From: a virus
Taxonomy: Duplodnaviria; Heunggongvirae; Uroviricota; Caudoviricetes
IMG/VR virus record: IMGVR_UViG_2913177423_000002
Strand: one strand, 5' to 3'
DNA: 13,420 nt
Positions 1,755 through 13,420 of this stretch are shown here, one piece after another. How positions within the stretch are numbered: the first letter of the stretch is position 1; every line of letters begins with the position of its first letter. Under the pieces are notes generated by a model. It saw only the letters and a program-made list of their open reading frames with translations. It did not search any database and had not been told where the DNA came from. Both the position numbers and the translations under genes were made by a program.

Positions 1755-1970
1755 TTAATCAGTAATAATGACATTTGCTGCTGCAGGACCTTTAGCACCA
1801 CTCTCTACAGAGAAGGTAACCTTTTGGCCTTCAAATAAGGTTCGATAATTATCATTCTGAATTGCAGAAAAATGCACAAACACATCTTTACTACCATCAA
1901 CAGGAGAAATAAAGCCAAAACCTTTATCAGCGTTAAACCATTTTACTAAACCAGTCATTTTATTTGACAT
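1755..1970 (-). CDS. cspB: Cold-shock protein, CspA family (CspB-like)
   Basis: 71 aa [38 protein letters not shown]...; RNP1 motif KGFGFI and RNP2-like VFVHF of the cold-shock domain. Confidence 0.93.
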
Positions 1971-3307: not shown

Positions 3308-3670
3308 TCATTCATCCCCCAGTTCGGTGATGATCAGTTCCAGCTTTCCACCCTTGGTAACGGGCATTTTCACAACGCGATAATCAACGACCTGAGCATC
3401 ATCCAGCCAGAAACCTGCTTTGGTGAGTGCGTCAAAAGCTGCTTTTTGCAGATTATCCAGGTCACGGCGACGGCGATCCGGCATGTGGCACTCAATACGG
3501 ATTTTCACTGGCATAGCCAGACCGATATCCAGCATGGAGCCTTTGATGATTCGGGCGACGTTATCGCGGTATACCTGCCCCTCTGCGCTGATGTGCGTGC
3601 GCCCGCGATTATGGCGGTAGTAGCGGTTATTGCTCGGCGGCCAGGGTAGTGTGATGTAGTAAGTATTCAC
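3308..3670 (-). CDS. rusA: Holliday junction resolvase RusA
   Basis: GTG start at 3670 overlapping the upstream stop (GTGA); translation ...[36 protein letters not shown]...[21 protein letters not shown]... is the RusA family signature. The track ORF extends further upstream in frame but that part overlaps ybcO. Confidence 0.9.
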
Positions 3671-3957
3671 GCCTTGATTACCCCCTCTTTCAGCCAGATA
3701 ACCTGCGTTCTCGCCATATCTTCCAGCGCGCATTCTTTTGCATACTCAGCATCGACAAAATGTGTGCGGCGGTCGATTTCGTCGTGACAGGCAGAACATG
3801 CAATGGTGGCAATCAGGTCTGGCGGTTTGATACCGGTACCGCACAATCCAGCCAGCCGGATATGTGCCAGTACAGACGTTTCAGGATTGCCATTACATAC
3901 GCCAGGGATTCTTACCTGGCATTCCCGACCACGCGCTGCTTTTCTCAAATCAGCCAT
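3667..3957 (-). CDS. ybcO: YbcO-like Cys-rich protein (putative nuclease, DLP12 nin-region family)
   Basis: ATG at 3957 with AGGAGG RBS; [42 protein letters not shown]... 96 aa; start overlaps the ninE stop. Confidence 0.85.
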
Positions 3958-4120
3958 GATTCCTCCTTGCTGCCAGTCGCAACCATTTTTTATCAACCAG
4001 GCTGGCGGTATATCCGAGCAGTGTTGGTATTTCGGATGGTTTCAGCTCAGGCTTACGCTTACGACGATTTGGTACTCTGTAGATGTGTCCGCTCATGACA
4101 CGAATAAGCGGTGTAGCCAT
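3950..4120 (-). CDS. ninE: NinE-like small protein (56 aa)
   Basis: Not in ORF track (short). ATG at 4120 overlaps the ybcN stop (TAATG); translation [56 protein letters not shown]; its stop overlaps the ybcO start. Confidence 0.8.
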   Translation of the reverse strand: MATPLIRVMSGHIYRVPNRRKRKPELKPSEIPTLLGYTASLVDKKWLRLAARRNHG

Positions 4121-4575
4121 TACGCCTCCTGCTTGTCGCGCAGCAGCTGGAACTCGCAGCTCTGCGGAATAGTCAGGTGGCAGCCAATATTCATCGCCCA
4201 GGCTTCAACCTTACACAGGAAGACATACATCTCTCCGGTATCAAGATCGGAGGTATGGCGTAACGACTGGATCGTAGTGATTTCGCCGGTTACGACATCA
4301 ACCAGGTCCTTGGTTTCATAACCGAGGTATGTGTGTTTGAGTGCATCTTTTACCCATACTGCAGTAGCGAACGTTTTACCCCTGCTGATGAGGTACTCAC
4401 TGATTTCGCTGTACCACATGTGGCTGAGTGCATTCTGGGAAAGACTGCGTCTCTCGCGCCACGGTTTAAGCACCATGCGAAAGCATTTGCCATCCTCCAG
4501 ATAAGGCTGGATCTGCTGACCGATAGCGGTGAAGTTGCCGCGATGTAATTTGATGCCGTCTTGTGGGAGGTTCAC
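4120..4575 (-). CDS. ybcN: YbcN-like protein (DLP12 nin-region family)
   Basis: 151 aa ORF, GTG start at 4575 with GGAGGTGA RBS; first gene of the coupled ybcN-ninE-ybcO-rusA block. Confidence 0.85.
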
Positions 4576-5086
4576 GCTTCACCTCCGCAGAGGTCAAACG
4601 TTGGATGCAAAAAATCGCAGGTGCATTTCTGCATCTGTGAAGGGAGAAGAGAGTTTAGATTGTGTGTGCGCATAAACGTCCCCGTTTAGCGCAGAAGTCA
4701 CCGGAGGTGTTCAGGCTCCGATGACATGATTATGGCGAGTTGATTATGGAAAATCAATTGAAGATGAAATTCAACAATGCCCCATGGTGCTATGGCGCTC
4801 AATTAATTATATAACTTCAGAGAAAACTGATAACCCATTGATGATGACATTAGCTCAGACTAAGAAGACTGACAACGGGGACGAACATGAACAGCAACGC
4901 CTGACATAGGTAAATCTCAAAAGCGAATCATATAATCCTTACCCCATCACTCAGAGACATCGCATAATAACATTCATACCACTATATAACCTCCAAATAA
5001 CAACAACAATTCATTGGTTGCATTAATATCAGCGTGTTCCGTTGTTCAGGAATAAAACTTTTTATTTAACAAACAAAGAGAGTTCA

Positions 5087-5764
5087 ATGATGAGCAAAAT
5101 TACAGGCGTGTTAGTTGATAGCCATATCTATGATATTAAAAATGATATGGAGAGTGGTTACTGTTTCCCTAACAGTTTGTTCCCAGGAGCAACCTTCAAG
5201 ATGGTCATTGATAATGACCCTATTAATAATGACAAGGTAAAATGGACCTGTAGCACTAATGCAGACAATAATGTTCTGGCGGTTAGCCAGGATGGCACAG
5301 TAACTTTTCCGGGCGTAGATGAAAAGTGCGTTGGGAAGATTTTTGTCATTTTCGCCACTGATAAATCAACAAACAAATCTGCCGGCATCTATGTTTTTAT
5401 TGTGAAGCGTTTTTTCAAATACAGCATTGAACTTTATAACTCAGTTAAAGATATTTTACCGTGGATTGAAAACATGAACGGGAATTTTCCTGAGGCACGT
5501 GACATCTATAGTTACGATTATGATAACTATAGTGGACCGCATATTATCAATCGAGAAGTTAACGCAGGGCTTTACCAGGAATGGGGCACGTTATCTAATA
5601 GTGGATGGGACGCAAGTTGTGAGCTTGAGGGTATTTGTAGCATTTACGCTTTTGATAAAGACAATAATACTTATTATTGCCTGCGTGATTATGGAGAAAT
5701 AGAGTGTATTGATCGTTTTTGCGTCGCTCAGGCAGTTGCATCCTACGGAGAATCCATCGACTGA
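5087..5764 (+). CDS. Orphan hypothetical protein (about 226 aa) in an AT-rich island; possible Ig-like N-terminal region plus Cys-containing C-terminal domain
   Basis: Track ORF 5042-5764 starts at TTG; ATGATG at 5087 with AAAGAGAG RBS is the likely start. Opposite strand to all neighbours, AT-rich codon usage, own terminator downstream. Segment KVKWTCSTNADNNVLAVSQDGTVTFPGV...GKIFVIFAT resembles bacterial Ig-like (Big_2-type) domains (weak, from pattern only). Confidence 0.6.
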   Translation: MMSKITGVLVDSHIYDIKNDMESGYCFPNSLFPGATFKMVIDNDPINNDKVKWTCSTNADNNVLAVSQDGTVTFPGVDEKCVGKIFVIFATDKSTNKSAGIYVFIVKRFFKYSIELYNSVKDILPWIENMNGNFPEARDIYSYDYDNYSGPHIINREVNAGLYQEWGTLSNSGWDASCELEGICSIYAFDKDNNTYYCLRDYGEIECIDRFCVAQAVASYGESID

Positions 5765-5840
5765 TTGTGTTTTTTTCAACTATCATTTGCATTATTACAG
5801 CGTAAAGATTCACTGAAATTATAAAATTTAACTTGCGCAA

Positions 5841-5872
5841 AACCACCCGTTCAGCGGGTGGTTCTCATTTTT
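5841..5872 (+). terminator. Rho-independent terminator of the island gene
   Basis: Perfect 9 bp stem aaccacccg/cgggtggtt (5841-5863) with 5 nt loop, followed by a T-run 5868-5872. Confidence 0.7.
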
Positions 5873-6044
5873 ATCCACTATGTATATGAAGCTTAAAAAA
5901 AATAAACGGACTTAAGCGCTCCTTTTTATATTGCTACAAACAATTAATTCTCGACACCTAATAACTAAAGCCCCGCCCCCATATACCGCCAATACCCGTT
6001 TCATAACAAAATGCTGGTGACATTTCTCACCGGAAACTTTATTG

Positions 6045-6650
6045 CTACTGCTCAGAACGCAAATGCGGCAATACTCGGCTCCACTTATCATCCTGCCACG
6101 GCTGGAATCTTACATGTGCCGTTTCTCTGGCAAGGATTTCGCGCGCCTTATGTAGTATCTGGGGATATTCTTGCTCAATAGAAGTAAAGCGACCGGCTTC
6201 GCGATGCTCCGCAACCTGAAGAAGTGGAGTAACATTCTGGCAGGCGGTTAACATCACATCCCCTGCTCGCCATAACCAGGCGAGTGTGCAAAGTTCGTTA
6301 TCAGTGAATTGTTTTGTGATTGGGGATTGTTGAACTTCTCGATCGAGAATATCCAGAACCCAGCGGCGGAATTCTTTGGCTACAGGAGTGCGGGCGAACA
6401 TAGCGATCAAATGGGCACCACGGAGGGAGAAAATGCGTATTGTTTTCTGGTAGTTCCCTGAGACACTCAAATTGAGGGTCTCAGTCATATCTGCCCTAAA
6501 TTCATCGGAATTTCGATCGTAGATCTGAGTTACGGCATCAGATTTTTTATATCCGAGAGCTTGAGCAATCTCAACGGCAGTAAGCCAGATACTGTTGTTG
6601 TGTTTAACAGGATGGAATTTTGTTTGATGAAAGACTAGTTGTGTGCTCAT
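6045..6650 (-). CDS. Bro-N/KilA-N-like domain protein (antirepressor/Roi-like)
   Basis: 201 aa; N-terminal region LVFHQTKFHPVKHNNSIWLTAVEIAQALGYKKSDAV resembles the Bro-N DNA-binding domain pattern. Family assignment from pattern memory only. Confidence 0.6.
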   Translation of the reverse strand: MSTQLVFHQTKFHPVKHNNSIWLTAVEIAQALGYKKSDAVTQIYDRNSDEFRADMTETLNLSVSGNYQKTIRIFSLRGAHLIAMFARTPVAKEFRRWVLDILDREVQQSPITKQFTDNELCTLAWLWRAGDVMLTACQNVTPLLQVAEHREAGRFTSIEQEYPQILHKAREILARETAHVRFQPWQDDKWSRVLPHLRSEQ

Positions 6651-6807
6651 GATGATTACCTATAAATCAAGTTAACCACCACCGCTGACGCCAATCAGTT
6701 TGGTGGTGAGACATGTAGGGTTGGCGTAACCGGGGTAATCAACCGGCCCGACCGAAGTCGGCCCTACACGCCCCACCATAATTCAGATGTGCGTATGCTT
6801 ACGACAA

Positions 6808-6830
6808 TAAAAAACACGCTCGCGGCGTGT
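6808..6830 (-). terminator. Rho-independent terminator downstream of the ninB-like gene
   Basis: Stem acacgc/gcgtgt (6814-6830) with 5 nt loop; on the minus strand it is followed by TTTTTT (plus-strand A-run 6808-6813). Confidence 0.5.
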
Positions 6831-6925
6831 AGTAGTCGCGATTACCTTATCCGGGACGCCAATCCCGTGTGCCGATTTTGCGGCAACGCACAGAATATAG
6901 CGCCAGATATTAGTTATCGTCAACC

Positions 6926-7414
6926 TCACTGATTTCCTCCCCCCGCCGCATAAACAAATAAAACCCGCTTCATCGCGGCACTCTGGCGACACTCCTTGAA
7001 AATCAGATTCGTGCTCACCTTTCCTTCCCGTTCTTCCCTGGTAGCGAACCGGTAATACACCGTTCGCCAGACCTTACCATCAATGACTAAGATTCCTGCC
7101 CGCGCCATTTTAGCCGCAGCCTGATTTATGCTGGTTACTGTTGCGCCTGTTACCTCAGCAACGTCCTGCTGCTTTAATGCTGCTGTAAAAACGCACTTCC
7201 AGCTTTCTGCATCCAGCCAGCGACCATGCCATTCAACCTGACGAGAGACGTCACCAAGGCAAGCCCAAAGCTTTCGATTCTGGTCTAAGCTGCGGTTGCG
7301 TTCCTGAATGGTTACTACGATTGGTTTGGTTGGGTCTGGAAGGATTTGCTGTACTGCGTGAATAGCGTTTTGCTGATGTGCTGGAGATCGAATTTCAAAG
7401 GTTAGCTTTTTCAT
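6926..7414 (-). CDS. ninB: NinB (Orf) family recombination protein, N-terminal half conserved, C-terminal half divergent
   Basis: ATG at 7414 with GGGGGAGAGGGA RBS; MKKLTFEIRSPAHQQNAIHAVQQILPDPTKPIVVTIQERNRSLDQNRKLWACLGDVSRQVEWHGRWLDAESWKCVFTAALKQQDV matches lambda NinB as I recall it, then the sequence diverges. The track start at 7432 is a TTG inside the RBS. Confidence 0.7.
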   Translation of the reverse strand: MKKLTFEIRSPAHQQNAIHAVQQILPDPTKPIVVTIQERNRSLDQNRKLWACLGDVSRQVEWHGRWLDAESWKCVFTAALKQQDVAEVTGATVTSINQAAAKMARAGILVIDGKVWRTVYYRFATREEREGKVSTNLIFKECRQSAAMKRVLFVYAAGGGNQ

Positions 7415-7431
7415 GACTTCCCTCTCCCCCA

Positions 7432-7462
7432 AATAAAAAGGCCTGCGATTACCAGCAGACCT
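7432..7462 (-). terminator. Possible tR2-like terminator between helicase and ninB
   Basis: Imperfect hairpin aggcctgc/gcagacct (one mismatch) followed on the minus strand by TTTTTATTT. Confidence 0.35.
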
Positions 7463-7487
7463 GTTATTAGCTCAGTGATGTAGATGG

Positions 7488-8864
7488 TCATACGTCAGCC
7501 CCTTGTGCATATCGTCTGCCACGCGCAGCAGGTGCATTTGATGCTGTGCAAATCTGTCTGGCTTCATCCTGGTCACATGCAACAAAGTGTCCGTTACAGA
7601 ACCGCTGGTAAACCGTACCAAGTGAGCCAAAACGGTTTTTCGTCACGATGATTTCAGCAAATGGCGCGGCGCTACTGTTCTCGTCATATACCGCTTCCCG
7701 ATAGAGCATGATGATTGAGTCTGCGTCCTGCTCAATGCTTCCTGAATCACGCAAATCTGCGTTTGTCGGGCGTTTGTTTGGTCGCTTCTCAACATCGCGT
7801 GAAAGCTGACTTAGGGAGATAACAGGCGTTTTCAGGTCTTTCGCCATCGCCTTAAGGCTTCCTGAGATGTGAGCAATTGCGAGGTCGTTGCGGTCTGCTT
7901 TCGGCTTCTCAATCAGGCCAAGATAATCCGCCATGATGAGTGACAGGTTTGGATTTTCCTGTTTGTGTCGTTCTGCGATTGAGCGAATTTCTTCGACAGA
8001 TAACCGCGAGGCATCGACTACCCATACATCCAAATCTGCAAGCTGACTCATGCCGTTAGCAACGCGCGCCCAGCCTTCGTCATCCATCGATGCAGGATTT
8101 CGCAGCACGCTAACCGACATCCTCCCGGCGTTGGCAATGCTTCGCTCTGCAATCTGCAATGCGCTCATTTCCATCGAGAAAATCAATACTCCGCGCCGGA
8201 CGTCAGAACCAGGAATAACGCGGCTTGCAACGCCTTCGGCAATCTTCAGCGCCAGTTCGGTTTTCCCCATACCAGGACGAGCGGCGATAATCACCAGGTC
8301 TTCCGCGTTCATCCCTCCGGTGATGGCGTCAAGTTCTTCGATTCCGGTCTTCAGGGTATCTGACTCTTCTCCGTTCCTCAGACGCCTGTCAAGCGTGTCA
8401 GTGTAGTCAGTGATGATTTCCCCTAACCGTACAGGTTTAACCTCGTCACGGGGCTTTCTGATGGCTGAGAGCCGTTTTACAAGTTCATCCATCGCCTGAC
8501 TCGATGCGTCGATGGTTCCGCTTTGGATTGGTTCACGCATTTCATCCATGATTTCCAGCACCAGACGGCGGTGATAGTTATCCGCGACCATTCCGGCATA
8601 TCCCTTCAGGTTTGCGGCACTCGGGCAGTTTTTGCTGGTCATCAGGATTGACGTGAAATGCTCCTCTCCGCACGCCTCGGCAACCATCAGCGCGTCGATT
8701 AGGTTTCTGTTTCTCGCCTGCTTGCGGATAACCTCGAAGGCTTTCCGGTAGAGCGGAATTGAAAACGCTTCCGGCTCCAGCGTTGCCAGAACGTCGCTGG
8801 CGGTTGGTGTTAATCCACCAATCAGCAGGCCACCGATAACGCTCGCTTCGATATCCTGTTTCAT
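7488..8864 (-). CDS. Replicative DNA helicase, DnaB family (P22 gene 12-like)
   Basis: 458 aa with Walker A ARPGMGKT and DnaB-like C-terminal motifs; start overlaps the stop of the upstream initiator gene. Confidence 0.92.
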
Positions 8865-9682
8865 GCAATCCCCCTGTCTGCAAACTTCCCTTCCCGTACT
8901 CCCGTTAACGAGTCTTCCCTCAGCAGGTAATCAAAATCGGCCGTCCAGCCCGTGTCGTTGTCTCCGAAGTAAAACGGCTTGGCCTGATGCACAAACGCCC
9001 TGACATACGCTCTGAAACCGTCCACGTTTGGCGTTTTCAGTTGCGGGATGATTTTCTTCAGGCGACGTTTGCGTTTCTCGTTGACCGCAACAGCGTGTGG
9101 CAGTCTGTCACCGACTTCGGTGTTGTAGGCGTTCAGGAAGGATTCGTAGTCGATTCGTTCTGCCTTGCGACGTTCAGGTTTAACCTGCCCATCGCCGCCC
9201 CCGTTAGGGGGTAAGGGGGTATTTGTATTTATTGTCTTTTGTATATTGTCTTTTGTGTTTAGCTGACTTGGCTTATACCCATTAGCCGACTTGGCTAATG
9301 TTTTATTAGCTGTTTTAGCTAATGTTAAGCTGTCCTGGCTAATCCACTGAGAAACCACCTTGTTCACTCCGATTTTCACGCCATCAGCAATGAGGAATTT
9401 ACGCTCAATAAGCTGGCGCTTGGCAGCGCAAACATGAGTGTGATGAATACCTGTCATGGCTGCTATCTGCGTGTTTGTGAGTCGATCCATCGGCTTATTG
9501 AATCCGTATGTCTTGCGCATGATAGCGAGCATCACCTTCAACTGCCGGACGGTTAAATCAGCCATCAGCAGACTGTCGGTAATCTCGTTAGCAACGCGCA
9601 TGAAACCATCTTCGGTATCTGCCACGCGATGCTCCACGACCTCCAGTTGAGGCCTGTAATCAGCTAACTTAACGACGCCCAT
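8861..9682 (-). CDS. Replication initiator, lambda O / P22 gene 18 family
   Basis: 273 aa; N-terminal [38 protein letters not shown] matches the lambda O motif ADLTKRQFKVLLAILRKTYGWNKPMD (recalled). Iterons lie inside the gene; AGGAG RBS. Confidence 0.85.
9220..9345. repeat. Origin of replication: four iterons plus adjacent AT-rich segment, inside the initiator gene
   Basis: Direct repeats of an approximately 18 bp unit at 9260-9277, 9283-9300, 9307-9324 and 9328-9345 (AGCTGACTTGGCTTAT, AGCCGACTTGGCTAAT, AGCTGTTTTAGCTAAT, AGCTGTCCTGGCTAAT), start-to-start spacing 23, 24 and 20-21 bp; adjacent AT-rich tract with TATTGTCTTTTGT repeated (9220-9260). Confidence 0.7.
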
Positions 9683-9830
9683 GTTTCACTCCTGCTTTGG
9701 CTAGTCTGTAAACACCAACAAGGCGCTCTGCGAACGCCCTGTTATTTGCTGCGGCTACCACTAATCCCTCAGGTGAATCAGGGTGTCGAATCTCTTCTTT
9801 TTCCTGGTATTTCTTACGACGTTTTGTCAT
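9669..9830 (-). CDS. Small basic hypothetical protein (53 aa) between cII and the initiator gene
   Basis: ATG at 9830 with AGGAG RBS; [53 protein letters not shown]; overlaps the initiator start by 14 nt. No family recognised. Confidence 0.35.
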   Translation of the reverse strand: MTKRRKKYQEKEEIRHPDSPEGLVVAAANNRAFAERLVGVYRLAKAGVKHGRR

Positions 9831-9839
9831 AATTACTCC

Positions 9840-9908
9840 TGTGGATTGAGCCAGTCTTTCTACATCAGGCCTCAAAACTGTTGCAGCAGTCTTGAGGCTT
9901 TTCTTTTG
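9840..9908 (+). ncRNA. oop-like antisense RNA candidate (antisense to the 3' end of cII)
   Basis: Strong plus-strand terminator: stem 9869-9880 / 9887-9898 with one mismatch, loop TTGCAG, then TTTTCTTTT (9899-9907). Possible -10 CATAAT at 9828-9833. Geometry matches lambda oop. The start point is inferred, not seen. Confidence 0.45.
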
Positions 9909-10143
9909 TCAGCACCATGGCTACTTTCTTTGCCAGCTCTGCTAATTCCTCGTCTTCAACACCCCACTCCAGCACAGCCAGAAGCATGGCCATCTTTGGG
10001 ATAAAGCTGTCTTTCCATCGCGAAATTTGCGATTCATTAATCCCTAATGCATCAGCAACCTTTCGCTGACCACGTACAGCAATTCGATTTAGGATATTGC
10101 TTGTGATTGCATTCGCTTTCTTGCGAGTACTTGTAAGTTGCAT
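9865..10143 (-). CDS. cII: CII-like transcriptional activator (P22 C1 analogue)
   Basis: ATG at 10143 with AAGGAAA RBS (track ORF extends in frame upstream to 10230). ...GINESQISRWKDSFIPKMAMLLAVLEWGVEDEE matches the lambda CII helix-turn-helix and tetramerisation region VDKSQISRWKRDWIPKFSMLLAVLEWGV (recalled). Confidence 0.88.
   Translation of the reverse strand: MQLTSTRKKANAITSNILNRIAVRGQRKVADALGINESQISRWKDSFIPKMAMLLAVLEWGVEDEELAELAKKVAMVLTKEKPQDCCNSFEA
10097..10110 (+). promoter_or_regulatory. TTGC-N6-TTGC motif: candidate CII-binding site of a PRE-like establishment promoter
   Basis: Exact TTGCttgtgaTTGC on the plus strand inside the 5' part of cII, oriented toward cro and the repressor gene, as in lambda PRE. 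Confidence 0.5.
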
Positions 10144-10202
10144 ATGTAAGTATTTCCTTAACAAATAAGAAGTTATACGCACCAACTGATGCGCGTTGTA
10201 TT

Positions 10203-10244
10203 CCCGCATTTCGGCGGGAATGAGGACCATGACTGTTAAAGAGC
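10203..10244 (-). promoter_or_regulatory. nutR-like site (boxA GCTCTTTAA plus boxB hairpin)
   Basis: Minus strand reads TGCTCTTTAACA, a 14 nt spacer, then TCCCGCCGAAATGCGGGAA (5 bp stem, purine-rich loop). An identical boxA and boxB pair occurs downstream of PL. Located between cro and cII. Confidence 0.7.
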
Positions 10245-10251
10245 AATTTGC

Positions 10252-10437
10252 TTATGCCGCTTTGCGGTAAGCGCTTTCTTGATACTTCAGGGCGCCAGCT
10301 GTAACGACTTCCAGTCGATAGGCGTCTTTCTCTGGGATGACTTCCTTCCACTGAGAGACTGCTGCATCGCTAATGCCTAACGCTTTAGCTACCGCACGCT
10401 GGGTTCCGAAGTGGTCGATAACATCTTTCTTGTACAT
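10252..10437 (-). CDS. cro: Cro repressor (P22 Cro-like)
   Basis: 61 aa MYKKDVIDHFGTQRAVAKALGISDAAVSQWK... with helix-turn-helix; divergent from the repressor gene across the operator region; GGAG RBS. Confidence 0.9.
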   Translation of the reverse strand: MYKKDVIDHFGTQRAVAKALGISDAAVSQWKEVIPEKDAYRLEVVTAGALKYQESAYRKAA

Positions 10438-10451
10438 AGACTCGCTCCGAA

Positions 10452-10517
10452 ATTAAAGAACACTTAAATTATCTATCAAAGGAATCTTAAGTCAAGTTTA
10501 TTTAAGATGTCTTAACT
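10452..10517. promoter_or_regulatory. OR operator triplet with divergent PR and PRM
   Basis: Three 18 bp sites fitting ANTNAAGNNNNCTTNANT: 10452-10469 ATTAAAGAACACTTAAAT, 10475-10492 ATCAAAGGAATCTTAAGT, 10500-10517 ATTTAAGATGTCTTAACT. PR on minus: -35 TTGACT (10495-10490), 16 bp spacer, -10 GATAAT (10473-10468). The repressor ATG abuts the last operator, so the PRM transcript is near-leaderless. Confidence 0.75.
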
Positions 10518-11168
10518 ATGAATACACAACTGATGGGTGAGCGTATTCGCGCTCGCAGAAAAGAACTCAAGATTAGGCAGGCTGCCCTTGGCAAGATGGT
10601 TGGCGTGTCTAATGTTGCTATTTCCCAATGGGAGCGTTCTGAAACTGAGCCCAATGGCGAAAACCTATTGGCCTTAGCCAAGGCTTTGCAGTGCTCCCCT
10701 GATTACTTGTTGAAAGGAGAAGATAGTCTTTCAAACATTGCCTATCACAGCAGGCATGATCCAAGAGGTTCGTATCCTCTAATTAGTTGGGTAAGCGCAG
10801 GATGTTGGATGGAAGCTGTAGAGCCATATCATAAGCGTGCAATAGATAACTGGTACGATACAACCGTAGATTGTTCAGAAGATTCGTTTTGGCTGGACGT
10901 AAAGGGTGATTCGATGACGGCTCCAGCCGGTCTTAGCATCCCGGAAGGGATGATAATACTAGTCGATCCTGAAGTAGAACCTCGTAATGGGAAGCTGGTA
11001 GTGGCAAAGCTCGAAGGAGAAAACGAGGCAACTTTCAAGAAGTTAGTTATTGATGCTGGCAGAAGGTTTCTAAAACCACTTAACCCACAATATCCGATGA
11101 TTGAGATCAACGGGAACTGCAAAATCATCGGTGTAGTTGTCGATGCAAAAATAGCAAACCTTCCATAA
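10518..11168 (+). CDS. c2: Prophage repressor, P22 C2 type (HTH plus S24 LexA-like autocleavage domain)
   Basis: 216 aa; N-terminal helix-turn-helix (QAALGKMVGVSNVAISQWERSE), Ala-Gly cleavage site and GDSM serine motif with downstream lysine. Near-identical to P22 C2 as I recall it. Confidence 0.95.
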   Translation: MNTQLMGERIRARRKELKIRQAALGKMVGVSNVAISQWERSETEPNGENLLALAKALQCSPDYLLKGEDSLSNIAYHSRHDPRGSYPLISWVSAGCWMEAVEPYHKRAIDNWYDTTVDCSEDSFWLDVKGDSMTAPAGLSIPEGMIILVDPEVEPRNGKLVVAKLEGENEATFKKLVIDAGRRFLKPLNPQYPMIEINGNCKIIGVVVDAKIANLP

Positions 11169-11190
11169 GGGGCATTCGCCCCTTTTTTCT
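11167..11190 (+). terminator. Rho-independent terminator after the repressor gene
   Basis: Stem ggggc/gcccc (11169-11182), loop ATTC, then TTTTTT (11183-11188). Confidence 0.7.
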
Positions 11191-11231
11191 TTCCTTTAAA
11201 AATCAAAGCAAAACTTAAACTTCGCAATAAA

Positions 11232-11285
11232 ATTTAAGTTTTCTTCAAAAATACCCTTGACCACCAATTAAAGAAATCTTAAATT
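11232..11285 (+). promoter_or_regulatory. OL operators and PL promoter
   Basis: Operator-consensus sites at 11232-11249 (ATTTAAGTTTTCTTCAAA) and 11267-11284 (ATTAAAGAAATCTTAAAT); -35 TTGACC (11257-11262), 17 bp spacer, -10 TAAATT (11280-11285) overlapping the second operator. Confidence 0.6.
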
Positions 11286-11331
11286 TAAGTCATCAGCAGG
11301 ACGCTGGTAGCCAAACGGAACAGATTGGCAG

Positions 11332-11371
11332 GCTCTTTAACATTGATGGGATTGTCCCGCCGAAATGCGGG
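11332..11371 (+). promoter_or_regulatory. nutL-like site (boxA GCTCTTTAA plus boxB hairpin)
   Basis: GGCTCTTTAACA (boxA 11332-11340), spacer, CCCGCCGAAATGCGGG (boxB 11356-11371); boxA and boxB are identical to the nutR copy. Confidence 0.7.
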
Positions 11372-11394
11372 AACCAAAGAGTAGTTGGCTTTGG

Positions 11395-11460
11395 GGTGAC
11401 GTAAAGTGCAGCCGCGCAACAGCATCAGGGAGTTAACCTCCCTCCCCCAGTTACGTCACC
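11395..11460 (+). promoter_or_regulatory. Structured N-leader element (long-range inverted repeat enclosing a hairpin); possible RNase III-type processing or translational control site
   Basis: GGTGACGTAA (11395-11404) pairs with TTACGTCACC (11451-11460); inner hairpin GGGAG-TTAAC-CTCCC (11428-11442); ends 16 nt before the N-like RBS GGAGG. Confidence 0.4.
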
Positions 11461-11486
11461 GCTAAAGTCAATCATCGGAGGTCAAC

Positions 11487-11792
11487 ATGACAGTAGTCAT
11501 TACATATCTGGCTGACGATAACGCCAGAAATCGCCGCAGAGCACGCAGACAGGCTCAACGTGAACAGGCAATGAAAGAACAGAGACTGGCGCGAAAGATT
11601 GCGCTAAAACTCTCTGGTTGCGTCAGAGCAGACAAAGCAGCATCACTTGGCAGCCTTCTCTGCAAGAAAGTAGATGAAGTCGAGAAAAAAAATAGGAGGG
11701 TTTACTACAAGGATTTAAACCCATTAGGAAACAAGATACATGCAGTTCAAAGAATAAGATTGTATAGTAAACCACCGTACGGTGCTTATTGA
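11487..11792 (+). CDS. N: N-like transcription antiterminator with arginine-rich motif
   Basis: 101 aa; N-terminal ARM NARNRRRARRQAQREQ resembles lambda N QTRRRERRAEKQAQ; first gene after PL and nutL; GGAGG RBS. Confidence 0.75.
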   Translation: MTVVITYLADDNARNRRRARRQAQREQAMKEQRLARKIALKLSGCVRADKAASLGSLLCKKVDEVEKKNRRVYYKDLNPLGNKIHAVQRIRLYSKPPYGAY

Positions 11793-11794
11793 GT

Positions 11795-12133
11795 ATGCTT
11801 ATGGTGAAAAAGACTATCTATGTTAACCCTAACTGCGGACAAAACAGGAAAGTATTTGATAGAGGTCTTACACCTCAAGACAGAAGGAGAATAACGAGAT
11901 GGGAAAAGAGAATGGCATATGCATTAGAAAACGGTGTAACACCTGGATTTAATGCTATAGATGACGGTCCGGAATATAAGATTAATGAAGACCCAATGGA
12001 CAAAGTTGACAAAGCATTAGCAACACCATTTCCTCGAGATGTAGAAAAAATTGCAGATGAAAAATATGAGGATGTAATGCACAGAGTTGTTAACCACGCT
12101 CACCAACGAAATCCAAATAAAAAATGGTCATAG
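11795..12133 (+). CDS. Hypothetical early-left protein (about 112 aa)
   Basis: Track ORF 11789-12133 (TTG); ATG at 11795 is more likely, immediately after the N-like stop. No family recognised. Confidence 0.5.
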   Translation: MLMVKKTIYVNPNCGQNRKVFDRGLTPQDRRRITRWEKRMAYALENGVTPGFNAIDDGPEYKINEDPMDKVDKALATPFPRDVEKIADEKYEDVMHRVVNHAHQRNPNKKWS

Positions 12134-12156
12134 CCCACTTCGGTGGGTTTATTATT
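12134..12156 (+). terminator. Terminator-like hairpin with UUCG tetraloop (tL1-like)
   Basis: cccac-TTCG-gtggg (12134-12147) followed by TTTATTATT. Confidence 0.5.
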
Positions 12157-12266
12157 GTCCGAACTAACCGAATTTATTACAGCAAGCCACGCAGTGAAAT
12201 GGGTGTAACTTGTGTTGGTCGCCAGAAAATGAAATTAGGCAGCAAACCACTTATTTAAGGTGAGAT

Positions 12267-12353
12267 ATGGAAGAAGAATTTGAAGAGTTCGAAGAGCATC
12301 CGCAGGATGTGATGGAGCAATACCAGGACTATCCGTATGACTACGACTATTGA
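12267..12353 (+). CDS. Very acidic 28 aa peptide (Glu/Asp/Tyr-rich)
   Basis: ATG at 12267 preceded by AAGGTGAG; MEEEFEEFEEHPQDVMEQYQDYPYDYDY. Below the ORF-track cut-off; overlaps the next ORF start by 17 nt. Confidence 0.35.
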   Translation: MEEEFEEFEEHPQDVMEQYQDYPYDYDY

Positions 12354-12537
12354 TAAAAATCAATGGTGTGGACAATTCAAACGATGCAATGGATGCAAGC
12401 TGCAATCGGAATGCATGGTTAAGCCTGAAGAAATGTTTCCTGTAATGGAAGATGGGAAATATGTCGATAAATGGGCAATACGAACGACGGCAATGATTGC
12501 CAGAGAACTTGGTAAACAGAATAACAATGCTGCCTGA
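12337..12537 (+). CDS. Small Cys-containing hypothetical protein (66 aa)
   Basis: Track ORF; CGQFKRCNGCKLQSEC cluster near the N-terminus. No family recognised. Confidence 0.45.
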   Translation: MTTTIDKNQWCGQFKRCNGCKLQSECMVKPEEMFPVMEDGKYVDKWAIRTTAMIARELGKQNNNAA

Positions 12538-12673
12538 TGGTGGCCTTTATTTTTGGCATAAACAACAGAATAAACACAGCACTGTGTATTCATTCCAACG
12601 AGTGAATACACGGAGCAATGTCGCTCGTAACTAAACAGGAGCCGACTTGTTCTGATTATTGGAAATCTTCTTT

Positions 12674-12699
12674 GCCCTCCAGTGTGAGGGCGATTTTTT
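12674..12699 (+). terminator. Rho-independent terminator
   Basis: Stem gccctc/gagggc (12674-12691), loop CAGTGT, then TTTTTT (12694-12699). Confidence 0.6.
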
Positions 12700-12719
12700 A
12701 TCTATGAGGATATGAATAG

Positions 12720-13088
12720 ATGTCAAACATCAAAAAATACATCATTGATTACGACTGGAAAGCATCAATAGAAATTGAAATCGACCATGACGTAATGACA
12801 GAGGAAAAACTTCACCAGATTAATAATTTCTGGTCAGACTCTGAATACCGACTCAATAAACACGGCGCTGTATTAAATGCTGTATTAATCATGCTGGCGC
12901 AACATGCTCTGCTTATAGCAATTTCGAAAGACTTAAATGCATATGGTGTTGTTTGTGAGTTCGACTGGGATGATGGAAATGGTCAGGAAGGATGGCCTCC
13001 AATGGATGGTAGTGAAGGAATAAGAATTACCGATATCGATACATCAGGAATATTTGATTCAGATGATATGACTATCAAAGCCGCCTGA
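12720..13088 (+). CDS. Acidic hypothetical protein (122 aa)
   Basis: Track ORF with GAGGA RBS; C-terminal third rich in Asp/Glu/Gly (WDDGNGQEGWPPMDGSEGIRITDIDTSGIFDSDDM). No family recognised. Confidence 0.6.
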   Translation: MSNIKKYIIDYDWKASIEIEIDHDVMTEEKLHQINNFWSDSEYRLNKHGAVLNAVLIMLAQHALLIAISKDLNAYGVVCEFDWDDGNGQEGWPPMDGSEGIRITDIDTSGIFDSDDMTIKAA

Positions 13089-13163
13089 GCGCGGCTTTAC
13101 CGCATACCAATAATGCTTCACCAGAGGCATTTTCGTTATGCAATCAAATATAAGGAGTTACCC

Positions 13164-13298
13164 ATGATGCACTTTCAGCTCGCGGGTAGCGGCGTCATGT
13201 CCGCTTTCTACCCGCACGAATCTGAATTATCACGCCGAGTTAAACAATTAATCAGAGCAGCAAAGAAACAACTGGAGGCGTTATGCGCAATGAAATAG
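13164..13298 (+). CDS. cIII: CIII-like protein (44 aa, putative FtsH inhibitor)
   Basis: ATGATG at 13164 with AAGGAG RBS (track ORF begins earlier at 13113). QLAGSGV...HESELSRRVKQLIRAAKKQLEAL parallels lambda CIII AIAGWPVAGCPSESLLERITRKLRDGWKRLIDIL (recalled): same AG motif and amphipathic helix. Confidence 0.65.
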   Translation: MMHFQLAGSGVMSAFYPHESELSRRVKQLIRAAKKQLEALCAMK

Positions 13299-13420
13299 CC
13301 ATCAATCACCAGATGCTTCGTGCAGCACAAAACAAAGCAGTAATAGCCCGATTTATTGGTGATTCAAAAATGTGGCTTGAAGCAAATAAAGCGATGAAAT
13401 GTAGTGGCATAGTAAATTTG
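13283..13420 (+). CDS. kil: Kil-like protein, N-terminal part (ORF continues past the window end)
   Basis: ATG at 13283 with GGAGG RBS; MRNEIAINHQMLRAAQNKAVIARFIGDSKMWLEANKAMK; the segment IARFIGDSKMWLEA resembles lambda Kil IATFIGDEKMFREA (recalled). Confidence 0.55.
   Translation, partial: MRNEIAINHQMLRAAQNKAVIARFIGDSKMWLEANKAMKCSGIVNL

What the first reader, a model, noticed from the sequence alone, without database searches (positions are those of the whole stretch)
11795..13088. Block of small unknown genes between N and cIII (candidate anti-defense or host-takeover genes)
Four ORFs of unrecognised family lie in the PL operon between the N-like gene and cIII: 11795-12133, the 28 aa acidic peptide 12267-12353, the Cys-rich 12337-12537, and the acidic 12720-13088. 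This is where lambdoid phages carry ral, abc, gam-type anti-nuclease and anti-restriction functions. Two of the products are strongly acidic, as DNA-mimic inhibitors are.
Basis: partly seen in the sequence, partly recalled or inferred. Interest (0 to 1): 0.55.

Follow-up and report, generated by a model that had tools for sequence, protein, structure and literature searches.

The report
Known lambda/HK022 early-left genes: nun, orf28, ral, ea10
The four "unknown" small genes are near-identical copies of long-catalogued lambdoid phage genes: HK022 nun (blocks phage lambda), lambda orf28, lambda ral (anti-restriction) and lambda ea10, so the block is ordinary, although what orf28 and ea10 do is unknown even in lambda.

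Summary
The claim that they belong to unrecognised families is wrong.

- **11795-12133** is nun, the HK022 transcription-arrest and lambda-exclusion factor. It is 92% identical to HK022 Nun, matches PDB 6ALG at E 1.6e-66, and keeps every C-terminal RNAP-contact residue.
- **12267-12353** is lambda orf28, 28/28 identical.
- **12337-12537** is lambda Ral (98%; Pfam PF11058, 160 bits).
- **12720-13088** is lambda Ea10 (98%; DUF2528).

- A 30-codon relic of a phage 21/lambda-type N gene at 12166-12258.
- A nun promoter and a hairpin after nun, which give nun the layout of a self-contained cassette.
- The lambda sRNA PreS/LPR1 with terminator tL2a. Window 12579-12703 is 125/125 identical to lambda.

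The N-plus-nun layout is already annotated in phage mEp235 and occurs in E. coli prophages. Only Ral is a demonstrated anti-defence function. Nun is a prophage exclusion (defence) factor. orf28 and Ea10 are conserved coding genes that are non-essential in lambda and have no known function. Novelty: already known. Interest: low.

The parts
11332..11372 (+). nutL of this phage: boxA GCTCTTTAAC (11332-11341) and an 18-nt boxB hairpin TCCCGCCGAAATGCGGGA (11355-11372). An identical boxA/boxB pair (nutR) lies on the - strand at 10244-10235 and 10219-10202.
   Evidence: The exact 18-mer occurs twice (0.01 expected). No lambda-type boxB is found within 3 mismatches.
11487..11792 (+). N-like antitermination gene (101 aa) with a complete but diverged N C-terminus.
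   Evidence: phrog_271, E 1.7e-29. Alignment with phage 21, mEp235 and lambda N.
11740..11768 (+). nun promoter inside the 3' end of the N-like gene: -35 ATGCAG (11740-11745), 17-nt spacer, -10 TATAGT (11763-11768).
   Evidence: It is positionally homologous to the 'nun gene promoter' -35/-10 annotated in phage O276 (HK022-derived; ATGCAG / TACAGT). Sequence conservation only; activity was not tested.
11795..12133 (+). nun: HK022-type transcription-arrest and lambda-exclusion factor (112-aa annotated form; the mature 109-aa numbering starts at VKK).
   Evidence: phrog_5632, E 2.6e-66. 92% identity to O276/HK022 Nun. PDB 6ALG chain N, E 1.6e-66, and 1HJI ARM peptide. Family alignment.
12132..12149 (+). 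Hairpin directly after the nun stop codon (CCCAC-TTCG-GTGGG), a likely terminator or 3' end of the nun cassette.
   Evidence: Terminator-like hit. The HK022/O276 copy has CCCGC-TCAG-GCGGG, one compensatory pair change.
12166..12258 (+). Relic of the last 30 codons of a phage 21/lambda-type N gene (NRIYYSKPRSEMGVTCVGRQKMKLGSKPLI). It lies within the mechanical 44-aa ORF 12124-12258.
   Evidence: phrog_271 positions 139-170 of 176, E 1.7e-12. DNA homology to phage 21 starts here. Protein alignment.
12267..12353 (+). orf28: a 28-aa acidic micro-ORF whose last 17 nt overlap the start of ral.
   Evidence: 28/28 identical to lambda orf28. phrog_16060, E 7e-19. Open in 80/80 ral loci and in P22-like phages.
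12337..12537 (+). ral: restriction-alleviation protein (66 aa, 4 Cys).
   Evidence: Pfam PF11058, 160 bits against a cut-off of 25. 65/66 identical to lambda and phage 21 Ral.
12613..12700 (+). Region corresponding to the lambda Hfq-dependent sRNA PreS/LPR1 (~88 nt), ending in terminator tL2a (stem 12672-12693 plus a T run). The 5' end is inferred from the published length.
   Evidence: Window 12579-12703 is 125/125 identical to lambda 33921-34045. Terminator scan. LPR1 is described as lying between ral and ea10 and ending at tL2a (bioRxiv 10.1101/2024.10.31.621285). No Rfam family matches.
12720..13088 (+). ea10: DUF2528 protein (122 aa, pI 4.3), function unknown.
   Evidence: Pfam PF10800, 156 bits against a cut-off of 22. 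98% identical to lambda Ea10. 117 homologues, nearly all carrying DUF2528. AF2 model with pLDDT 95.
13164..13298 (+). cIII (44 aa from the internal ATG; the mechanical ORF starts at 13113).
   Evidence: Pfam PF08134, E 4.6e-30, on residues 19-55 of the 61-aa ORF. A 135-nt CIII is annotated in mEp235 and E. coli BR1220.

Best explanation
This is the ordinary accessory segment of the PL (early-left) operon of a mosaic lambdoid prophage of Escherichia, assembled from modules already known in HK022, phage 21/lambda and mEp235.

(1) nun is a promoter-gene-hairpin cassette. [quoted passage not shown] Its C-terminal segment wedges into RNA polymerase and blocks translocation, so the prophage excludes lambda. 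The phage's own N works on a different boxB, so the phage is presumably spared.

(2) A 30-codon relic of a second N gene marks the recombination joint.

(3) orf28 is a conserved acidic 28-codon ORF that overlaps the ral start. It is probably translated. I favour a role coupled to ral expression or function, but this is inference.

(4) Ral, by homology, speeds de novo methylation by type IA restriction-modification enzymes (EcoKI family) through HsdM, protecting unmodified phage DNA.

(5) The ral-ea10 spacer encodes the sRNA PreS/LPR1 ending at tL2a. In lambda this sRNA raises dnaN translation and aids phage replication.

(6) ea10 encodes a well-folded acidic DUF2528 protein of unknown, non-essential function.

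Gene identities are shown here. All activities are inferred from the near-identical characterised genes.
For: Identities: Nun; orf28 100%; Ral 98%; Ea10 98%.

DNA: window 12250-13120 aligns with lambda and phage 21 with only scattered mismatches, and 125/125 nt are identical across tL2a/PreS.

Nun functional residues: the C-terminal 22 residues (YEDVMHRVVNHAHQRNPNKKWS) are identical to HK022 and contain H93, R94, N97, H98, H100, R102, K106, K107 and W108, the residues probed in PMC5386594. The ARM core DRRRI-RWEKR--Y is retained.

nun cassette: promoter hexamers are conserved relative to the O276 annotation, and the hairpin after nun shows a compensatory change.

The same layout exists elsewhere: annotated N plus Nun in mEp235; E. 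coli BR1220; nun lies at the same distance upstream of ral in 9 of 80 IMG/VR ral loci.

Own nut sites differ from lambda boxB.

Literature: Nun mechanism (PMC4124055, PMC5386594); Ral mechanism (PMC12707154); ral conditionally essential when a type I R-M system is present, and ea10 and orf28 non-essential (PMC10695390); PreS (bioRxiv 10.1101/2024.10.31.621285).
Against: No activity was tested. The Nun copy has 9 substitutions relative to HK022, 8 of them within the N-terminal 42 residues (mature numbering). S24P and A31T, inside the RNA-binding helix, are not seen in the 15 other family members aligned, so boxB specificity or affinity could differ. The nun promoter is weak by consensus and was not picked up by the generic promoter scan. 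The functions of orf28 and Ea10 are unknown, so 'ordinary' refers to their identity, not to an understood mechanism.
Confidence: 0.93

Rival explanations
1. One reading: the block consists of novel, unclassified anti-defence or host-takeover genes, with the acidic products acting as DNA mimics.
For: The position in the PL operon is right. Ral really is anti-restriction. orf28 and Ea10 are acidic, conserved and have no assigned function. There are no PADLOC hits, so they are not known defence genes.
Confidence: 0.05
2. The nun copy is a retargeted or weakened allele. Substitutions in the arginine-rich motif (S24P, R25Q, A31T, I37M, K42E) change which boxB it binds, so it excludes a different set of lambdoid phages than HK022 Nun does, or none.
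For: 8 of the 9 differences from HK022 Nun fall within the N-terminal 42 residues (mature numbering), while the RNAP-binding C-terminus is unchanged. S24P and A31T are unique among the 16 aligned family members. The same allele recurs at 99.4-99.9% in three other records, so it is maintained.
Against: R25Q, I37M and K42E also occur in other family members. The core DRRR-I-RWEK-Y39 is intact. Nine substitutions are too few to show selection. BoxB is dispensable for Nun arrest when Nun is in excess (PMC4124055).
Confidence: 0.15
3. orf28 is not a functional peptide. It is a translated leader (or merely a conserved RNA/DNA element) whose only role is to control ral translation through the 17-nt overlap.
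For: The orf28 stop overlaps the ral start (ATG at 12337, TGA at 12351-12353). DNA in orf28 is more conserved than in the body of ral between lambda-type and P22-type phages, which suggests constraints beyond the peptide.
Against: The changes seen in SF3 and phage 25 (P22-type) are all synonymous, and the frame and length are kept in all 84 further loci examined beyond the window's own. That pattern also fits selection on the peptide. ral has its own AGGA 8 nt upstream of its ATG, and a ribosome-binding site is annotated at that position in phage 21.
Confidence: 0.3

Closest known systems
HK022 Nun (PDB 6ALG, 1HJI; phrog_5632)
   Same: Full-length homology at 92% identity. Same length, same arginine-rich motif core, identical C-terminal RNAP-binding segment including K106, K107 and W108. 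Same upstream promoter hexamers and a downstream hairpin.
   Different: Nine substitutions, clustered in the N-terminal third (S24P, R25Q, A31T and others). Here nun follows a complete N-like gene with its own nut sites, whereas HK022 has no N and uses put RNAs (O276 annotation). The N-plus-nun layout itself is already annotated in mEp235.
Lambda Ral (Pfam PF11058, phrog_1055)
   Same: 65/66 residues identical. Same four cysteines. Same position after N and orf28, with the same overlapping orf28.
   Different: One C-terminal substitution (K64N). No sieB gene lies between N and orf28/ral, as in phage 21.
Lambda Ea10 (DUF2528, PF10800, phrog_646)
   Same: 98% identical, 122 aa. Same position between tL2a and cIII.
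   Different: Three substitutions relative to lambda. The legacy annotation as 'ssDNA-binding protein' is not supported by the model: a three-stranded sheet plus four helices, no match to an SSB or OB fold, and pI 4.3.
Lambda orf28 (lambdap47, phrog_16060)
   Same: 28/28 identical, with the same overlap with ral.
   Different: None at the protein level. Two synonymous DNA differences from lambda.
Lambda sRNA PreS/LPR1 and terminator tL2a
   Same: 125 nt identical to lambda across the sRNA and terminator. Same position between ral and ea10.
   Different: None detected. Expression was not tested.
Phage mEp235 early-left region (JQ182731)
   Same: The order N-like gene, nun, then the relic of an N 3' end is the same and is annotated.
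   Different: mEp235 N has the phage 21-type arginine-rich motif, and the window's N has a different one. mEp235 has a 207-aa hypothetical gene where this window has orf28-ral-PreS-ea10.

Membership tests
Nun transcription-arrest/exclusion factor (HK022 type) | Full-length sequence homology to HK022 Nun | tested here: met
   92% identity over 112 aa. PDB 6ALG_N E 1.6e-66 over residues 4-112. phrog_5632 E 2.6e-66, covering 112/112 profile positions.
Nun transcription-arrest/exclusion factor (HK022 type) | N-terminal arginine-rich motif that binds boxB (residues ~20-44, with the stacking aromatic Y39) | tested here: met
   DRGLTPQDRRRITRWEKRMAYALENG aligns with the 1HJI peptide (E 2.7e-8). RRR, RWEK and Y39 are kept. 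S24P, R25Q, A31T, I37M and K42E differ. RNA binding was not tested.
Nun transcription-arrest/exclusion factor (HK022 type) | C-terminal RNAP-contact residues H93, R94, N97, H98, H100, R102, K106, K107, W108 | tested here: met
   The C-terminal segment is identical to HK022. The residue list comes from PMC5386594.
Nun transcription-arrest/exclusion factor (HK022 type) | Nun-dependent exclusion of lambda / arrest at lambda nut-containing transcripts | not testable with these tools
   Needs lysogen plating or in vitro transcription.
Ral antirestriction protein (PF11058) | Pfam score above the gathering threshold, full-length match | tested here: met
   160.2 bits against a cut-off of 25, covering 66/66 profile positions. 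98% identical to lambda Ral.
Ral antirestriction protein (PF11058) | Alleviates type IA (EcoKI/EcoB) restriction by enhancing modification | not testable with these tools
   The mechanism is from the literature only (PMC12707154, PMC10695390).
Ea10 / DUF2528 (PF10800) | Pfam score above the gathering threshold, full-length match | tested here: met
   156.2 bits against a cut-off of 22, covering 104/104 profile positions. 98% identical to lambda Ea10.
Lambda orf28 (phrog_16060) | 28-codon acidic ORF overlapping the ral start, conserved as an open frame | tested here: met
   28/28 identity. Open in 80/80 IMG/VR ral loci and in 4 P22-like phages.
PreS/LPR1 sRNA of lambda | Sequence between ral and ea10 ending in the GC-rich hairpin and U-tail of tL2a | tested here: met
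   125/125 nt identical to lambda 33921-34045. Terminator hairpin at 12672-12693. Description.
PreS/LPR1 sRNA of lambda | Hfq-bound ~88/68-nt transcript that up-regulates dnaN | not testable with these tools
   Experimental property reported for lambda only.
   [not shown]

The most novel reading that the evidence does not exclude
The two acidic products with no known function even in lambda, the 28-aa orf28 peptide that overlaps ral and the DUF2528 protein Ea10, are inhibitors of a host defence or host-takeover factors. For example, orf28 could act together with Ral on restriction-modification enzymes.
Probability: 0.15. Interest if true: 0.5.

Novelty: already known. Interest (0 to 1): 0.1.

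Why it matters
It matters little for discovery. The block is a textbook piece of lambdoid phage genomes, and its parts are catalogued in PHROGs, Pfam and, for Nun, the PDB. There are two practical points. First, automatic annotation (PGAP) labels Nun, orf28's neighbours and cIII as 'hypothetical protein', so such blocks look unknown when they are not. Second, orf28 and Ea10 are widespread, strongly conserved, non-essential lambda genes that still lack a function, which makes them reasonable low-cost candidates for anti-defence screens.

Tried and rejected
- **Rfam, E <= 1, on 11100-13420:** no family, so PreS is not in Rfam.
- **NCBIfam and PADLOC:** no hits for any of the four proteins.
- **PDB sequence search for Ea10 and Ral:** nothing.
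- **Fold searches with a confident Ea10 model:**
  - Foldseek against PDB gave no hit with E < 2.
  - BFVD gave only one uncharacterised viral protein.
  - The HflC resemblance is tempting because cIII next door inhibits FtsH, but it is too weak to use.
- **afdb50 fold library:** unavailable.
- **Literature searches for ea10, DUF2528 and orf28:** no functional study found.
- **The search for related loci with a Ral alignment:** returned only 98-100% lambda-type copies. It did not widen the diversity available for a codon-level test of orf28, so I relied on four P22-like phages instead.
- **Rejected idea, nun splitting an N gene:** the upstream N-like gene has its own complete, diverged C-terminus. 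The cassette is therefore flanked by two N 3' ends rather than interrupting one gene.

Full report
**Context.** The window is the early region of a mosaic lambdoid prophage.
- On the - strand lie cro, cII, an O-like initiator, a DnaB-like helicase, ninB, an antirepressor, RusA, Q, a cold-shock gene, holin and endolysin.
- On the + strand lie a P22-c2-type repressor (10518-11168: Peptidase_S24 plus HTH) and then the PL operon.
- Two public records are nearly identical. An IMG/VR contig is 99.93% identical over window 3420-13420. A contig of Escherichia sp. E1V33 is 99.91% identical over 9853-13147. The host is therefore Escherichia.

**Observation.** The four ORFs are at the stated coordinates, lie between an N-like gene (11487-11792, phrog_271) and cIII (Pfam PF08134), and two products are acidic (pI 4.05 and 4.31).

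**Identity of the ORFs.** None of the four is of an unrecognised family.

| Coordinates | Gene | Evidence |
|---|---|---|
| 11795-12133 | nun | phrog_5632 'Nun-like transcription termination factor', E 2.6e-66; 92% identical to the HK022 Nun carried by phage O276; matches Nun in PDB 6ALG (E 1.6e-66) and the Nun ARM peptide of 1HJI |
| 12267-12353 | lambda orf28 | 28/28 identical |
| 12337-12537 | lambda Ral | 65/66 identical; Pfam PF11058, 160 bits against a cut-off of 25 |
| 12720-13088 | lambda Ea10 | 98% identical; DUF2528/PF10800, 156 bits against a cut-off of 22 |

At the DNA level, window 12250-13120 aligns with lambda and phage 21 with only scattered mismatches.

- **A relic of a second N gene.** Between nun and orf28 lies a relic of the last 30 codons of a phage 21/lambda-type N gene (12166-12258). 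It reads NRIYYSKPRSEMGVTCVGRQKMKLGSKPLI and hits the C-terminal part of the N profile. The upstream N-like gene has its own complete, diverged C-terminus.
- **nun looks like a self-contained cassette.**
  - About 100 nt upstream of nun, which is the 3' end of the N-like gene, is shared with HK022/O276. It contains the hexamers annotated there as the nun promoter: -35 ATGCAG at 11740-11745 and -10 TATAGT at 11763-11768.
  - A hairpin directly follows the nun stop (12132-12149). It differs from the HK022 copy by a compensatory pair.
  - nun is thus flanked by two N 3' ends, a plausible substrate for its movement by homeologous recombination. That last step is inference.
- **The ral-ea10 spacer is not empty.** Window 12579-12703 is 125/125 identical to lambda 33921-34045. 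This stretch carries terminator tL2a (hairpin 12672-12693) and the Hfq-dependent sRNA LPR1/PreS. A 2024 preprint places that sRNA between ral and ea10, ending at tL2a, and reports that it enhances dnaN translation and lambda replication.
- **The phage has its own nut sites.** There is a boxA GCTCTTTAAC plus an identical 18-nt boxB at nutL (11332-11372) and at nutR (10244-10202, - strand). No lambda-type boxB is present within 3 mismatches.

**How the parts most likely work (inferred from the characterised orthologues).**
- **Nun.** Its arginine-rich motif binds boxB of lambda nut RNA, competing with N. Its C-terminal segment blocks RNA polymerase translocation, so the lysogen excludes lambda (PMC4124055; PMC5386594).
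  - In the window's copy the C-terminal 22 residues are identical to HK022 and include H93, R94, N97, H98, H100, R102, K106, K107 and W108.
  - The ARM core (RRR, RWEK, Y39) is kept.
  - Eight of the nine substitutions lie within the N-terminal 42 residues (mature numbering). S24P and A31T are unique among 16 aligned family members, whereas R25Q, I37M and K42E occur in others.
  - A change of boxB specificity therefore cannot be excluded (rival explanation, about 0.15).
  - That the phage's own boxB differs from lambda's explains how nun can coexist with an N system.
- **Ral.** It accelerates first-strand methylation by type IA restriction-modification enzymes through HsdM (PMC12707154). It is conditionally essential for lambda on hosts with an active type I system (PMC10695390).
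- **orf28 and ea10.** Both are non-essential in lambda, and no functional study was found.

- **orf28** is an open 28-codon frame in 80 of 80 lambda-type ral loci from IMG/VR (6 peptide variants, 13 DNA variants).
  - It is also open in four P22-like Salmonella phages. There Ral differs at about 12 of 66 residues, while orf28 differs at 0 to 5 of 28.
  - The differences in SF3 and phage 25 are all synonymous.
  - orf28 is therefore a conserved, probably translated ORF. Whether the peptide or only its translation matters is open.
- **Ea10** has 117 homologues, nearly all carrying DUF2528 and mostly from Enterobacterales, down to 38% identity.
  - AlphaFold gives a confident model: pLDDT 95, a three-stranded sheet and four helices.
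  - Only one uncharacterised viral protein matches in BFVD.
  - The legacy label 'ssDNA-binding protein' has no support from the fold or the charge. A DNA-mimic role is not supported either.

**Distribution.**
- Parts of the 2-kb query window 11400-13420, which contains the block, match 2296 of 5426 complete E. coli genomes.
- The order N-like, nun, ral, DUF2528, cIII, kil occurs in E. coli BR1220, where PGAP calls Nun a 'hypothetical protein'.
- Phage mEp235 has N plus Nun annotated.
- nun sits at the same distance upstream of ral in 9 of 80 ral loci, and the PreS region is present in 74-75 of 80.

**Verdict.** The block is a known combination of known genes: one exclusion factor (Nun), one anti-restriction protein (Ral), one sRNA (PreS) and two conserved genes of unknown function (orf28, Ea10). 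Novelty: already known. Interest: low (0.1). The only residual opening is the unknown function of orf28 and Ea10, which is a general lambda question and not specific to this window.

Noticed in passing
window 12613-12700 (exact identity to lambda over 12579-12703): The ral-ea10 spacer carries the lambda sRNA PreS/LPR1 and terminator tL2a, 125/125 nt identical to lambda. Rfam has no model for it.
   Followed up: yes
window 12166-12258: A relic of the last 30 codons of a phage 21/lambda-type N gene lies downstream of nun. The intact N-like gene upstream has a diverged C-terminus, so nun is flanked by two N 3' ends. The ~100 nt upstream of nun in HK022/O276 is itself homologous to an N 3' end.
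   Followed up: partly
window 12132-12149: The hairpin right after the nun stop codon differs from the HK022 copy by a compensatory pair (CCCAC/GTGGG versus CCCGC/GCGGG), which suggests a conserved terminator or RNA 3' end for the nun cassette.
   Followed up: partly
window 11355-11372 (+) and 10219-10202 (-): Identical 18-nt boxB hairpins (TCCCGCCGAAATGCGGGA) lie about 13-15 nt downstream of boxA (GCTCTTTAAC) at nutL and nutR. The loop reads as a GAAA tetraloop closed by a C-U mismatch, unlike lambda's GAAAA/GAAGA pentaloop. Whether the resident Nun can bind it is unknown.
   Followed up: partly
window 5042-5764 (+), low-GC island ~4600-6000: A 240-aa ORF (TTG start) lies on the strand opposite to the PR operon, between ninB and an antirepressor gene, at GC 0.36-0.41. 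It has no PHROG, Pfam (above cut-off) or PADLOC match. It looks like a moron of unknown function.
   Followed up: partly
window 6926-7432 (-): One 168-aa ORF matches NinB/Orf over residues 5-106 and a Ren-like exclusion protein over residues 88-163. A second complete ninB-like gene lies at 4120-4575 (-). This may be a recombinant fusion or a truncated ninB joined to ren.
   Followed up: no
window 1755-1970 (-), low-GC region 1100-2300: A cold-shock protein gene (phrog_729) sits between the Q antiterminator gene and the holin gene, where lambdoid prophages often carry cargo downstream of Q.
   Followed up: no
[not shown]
   Followed up: partly
L011 (E. coli BR1220) 1793-2112: In this related prophage two extra small ORFs (44 and 61 aa) are inserted between ral and the DUF2528 gene, so the ral-ea10 spacer is a mosaic hot spot.
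   Followed up: no
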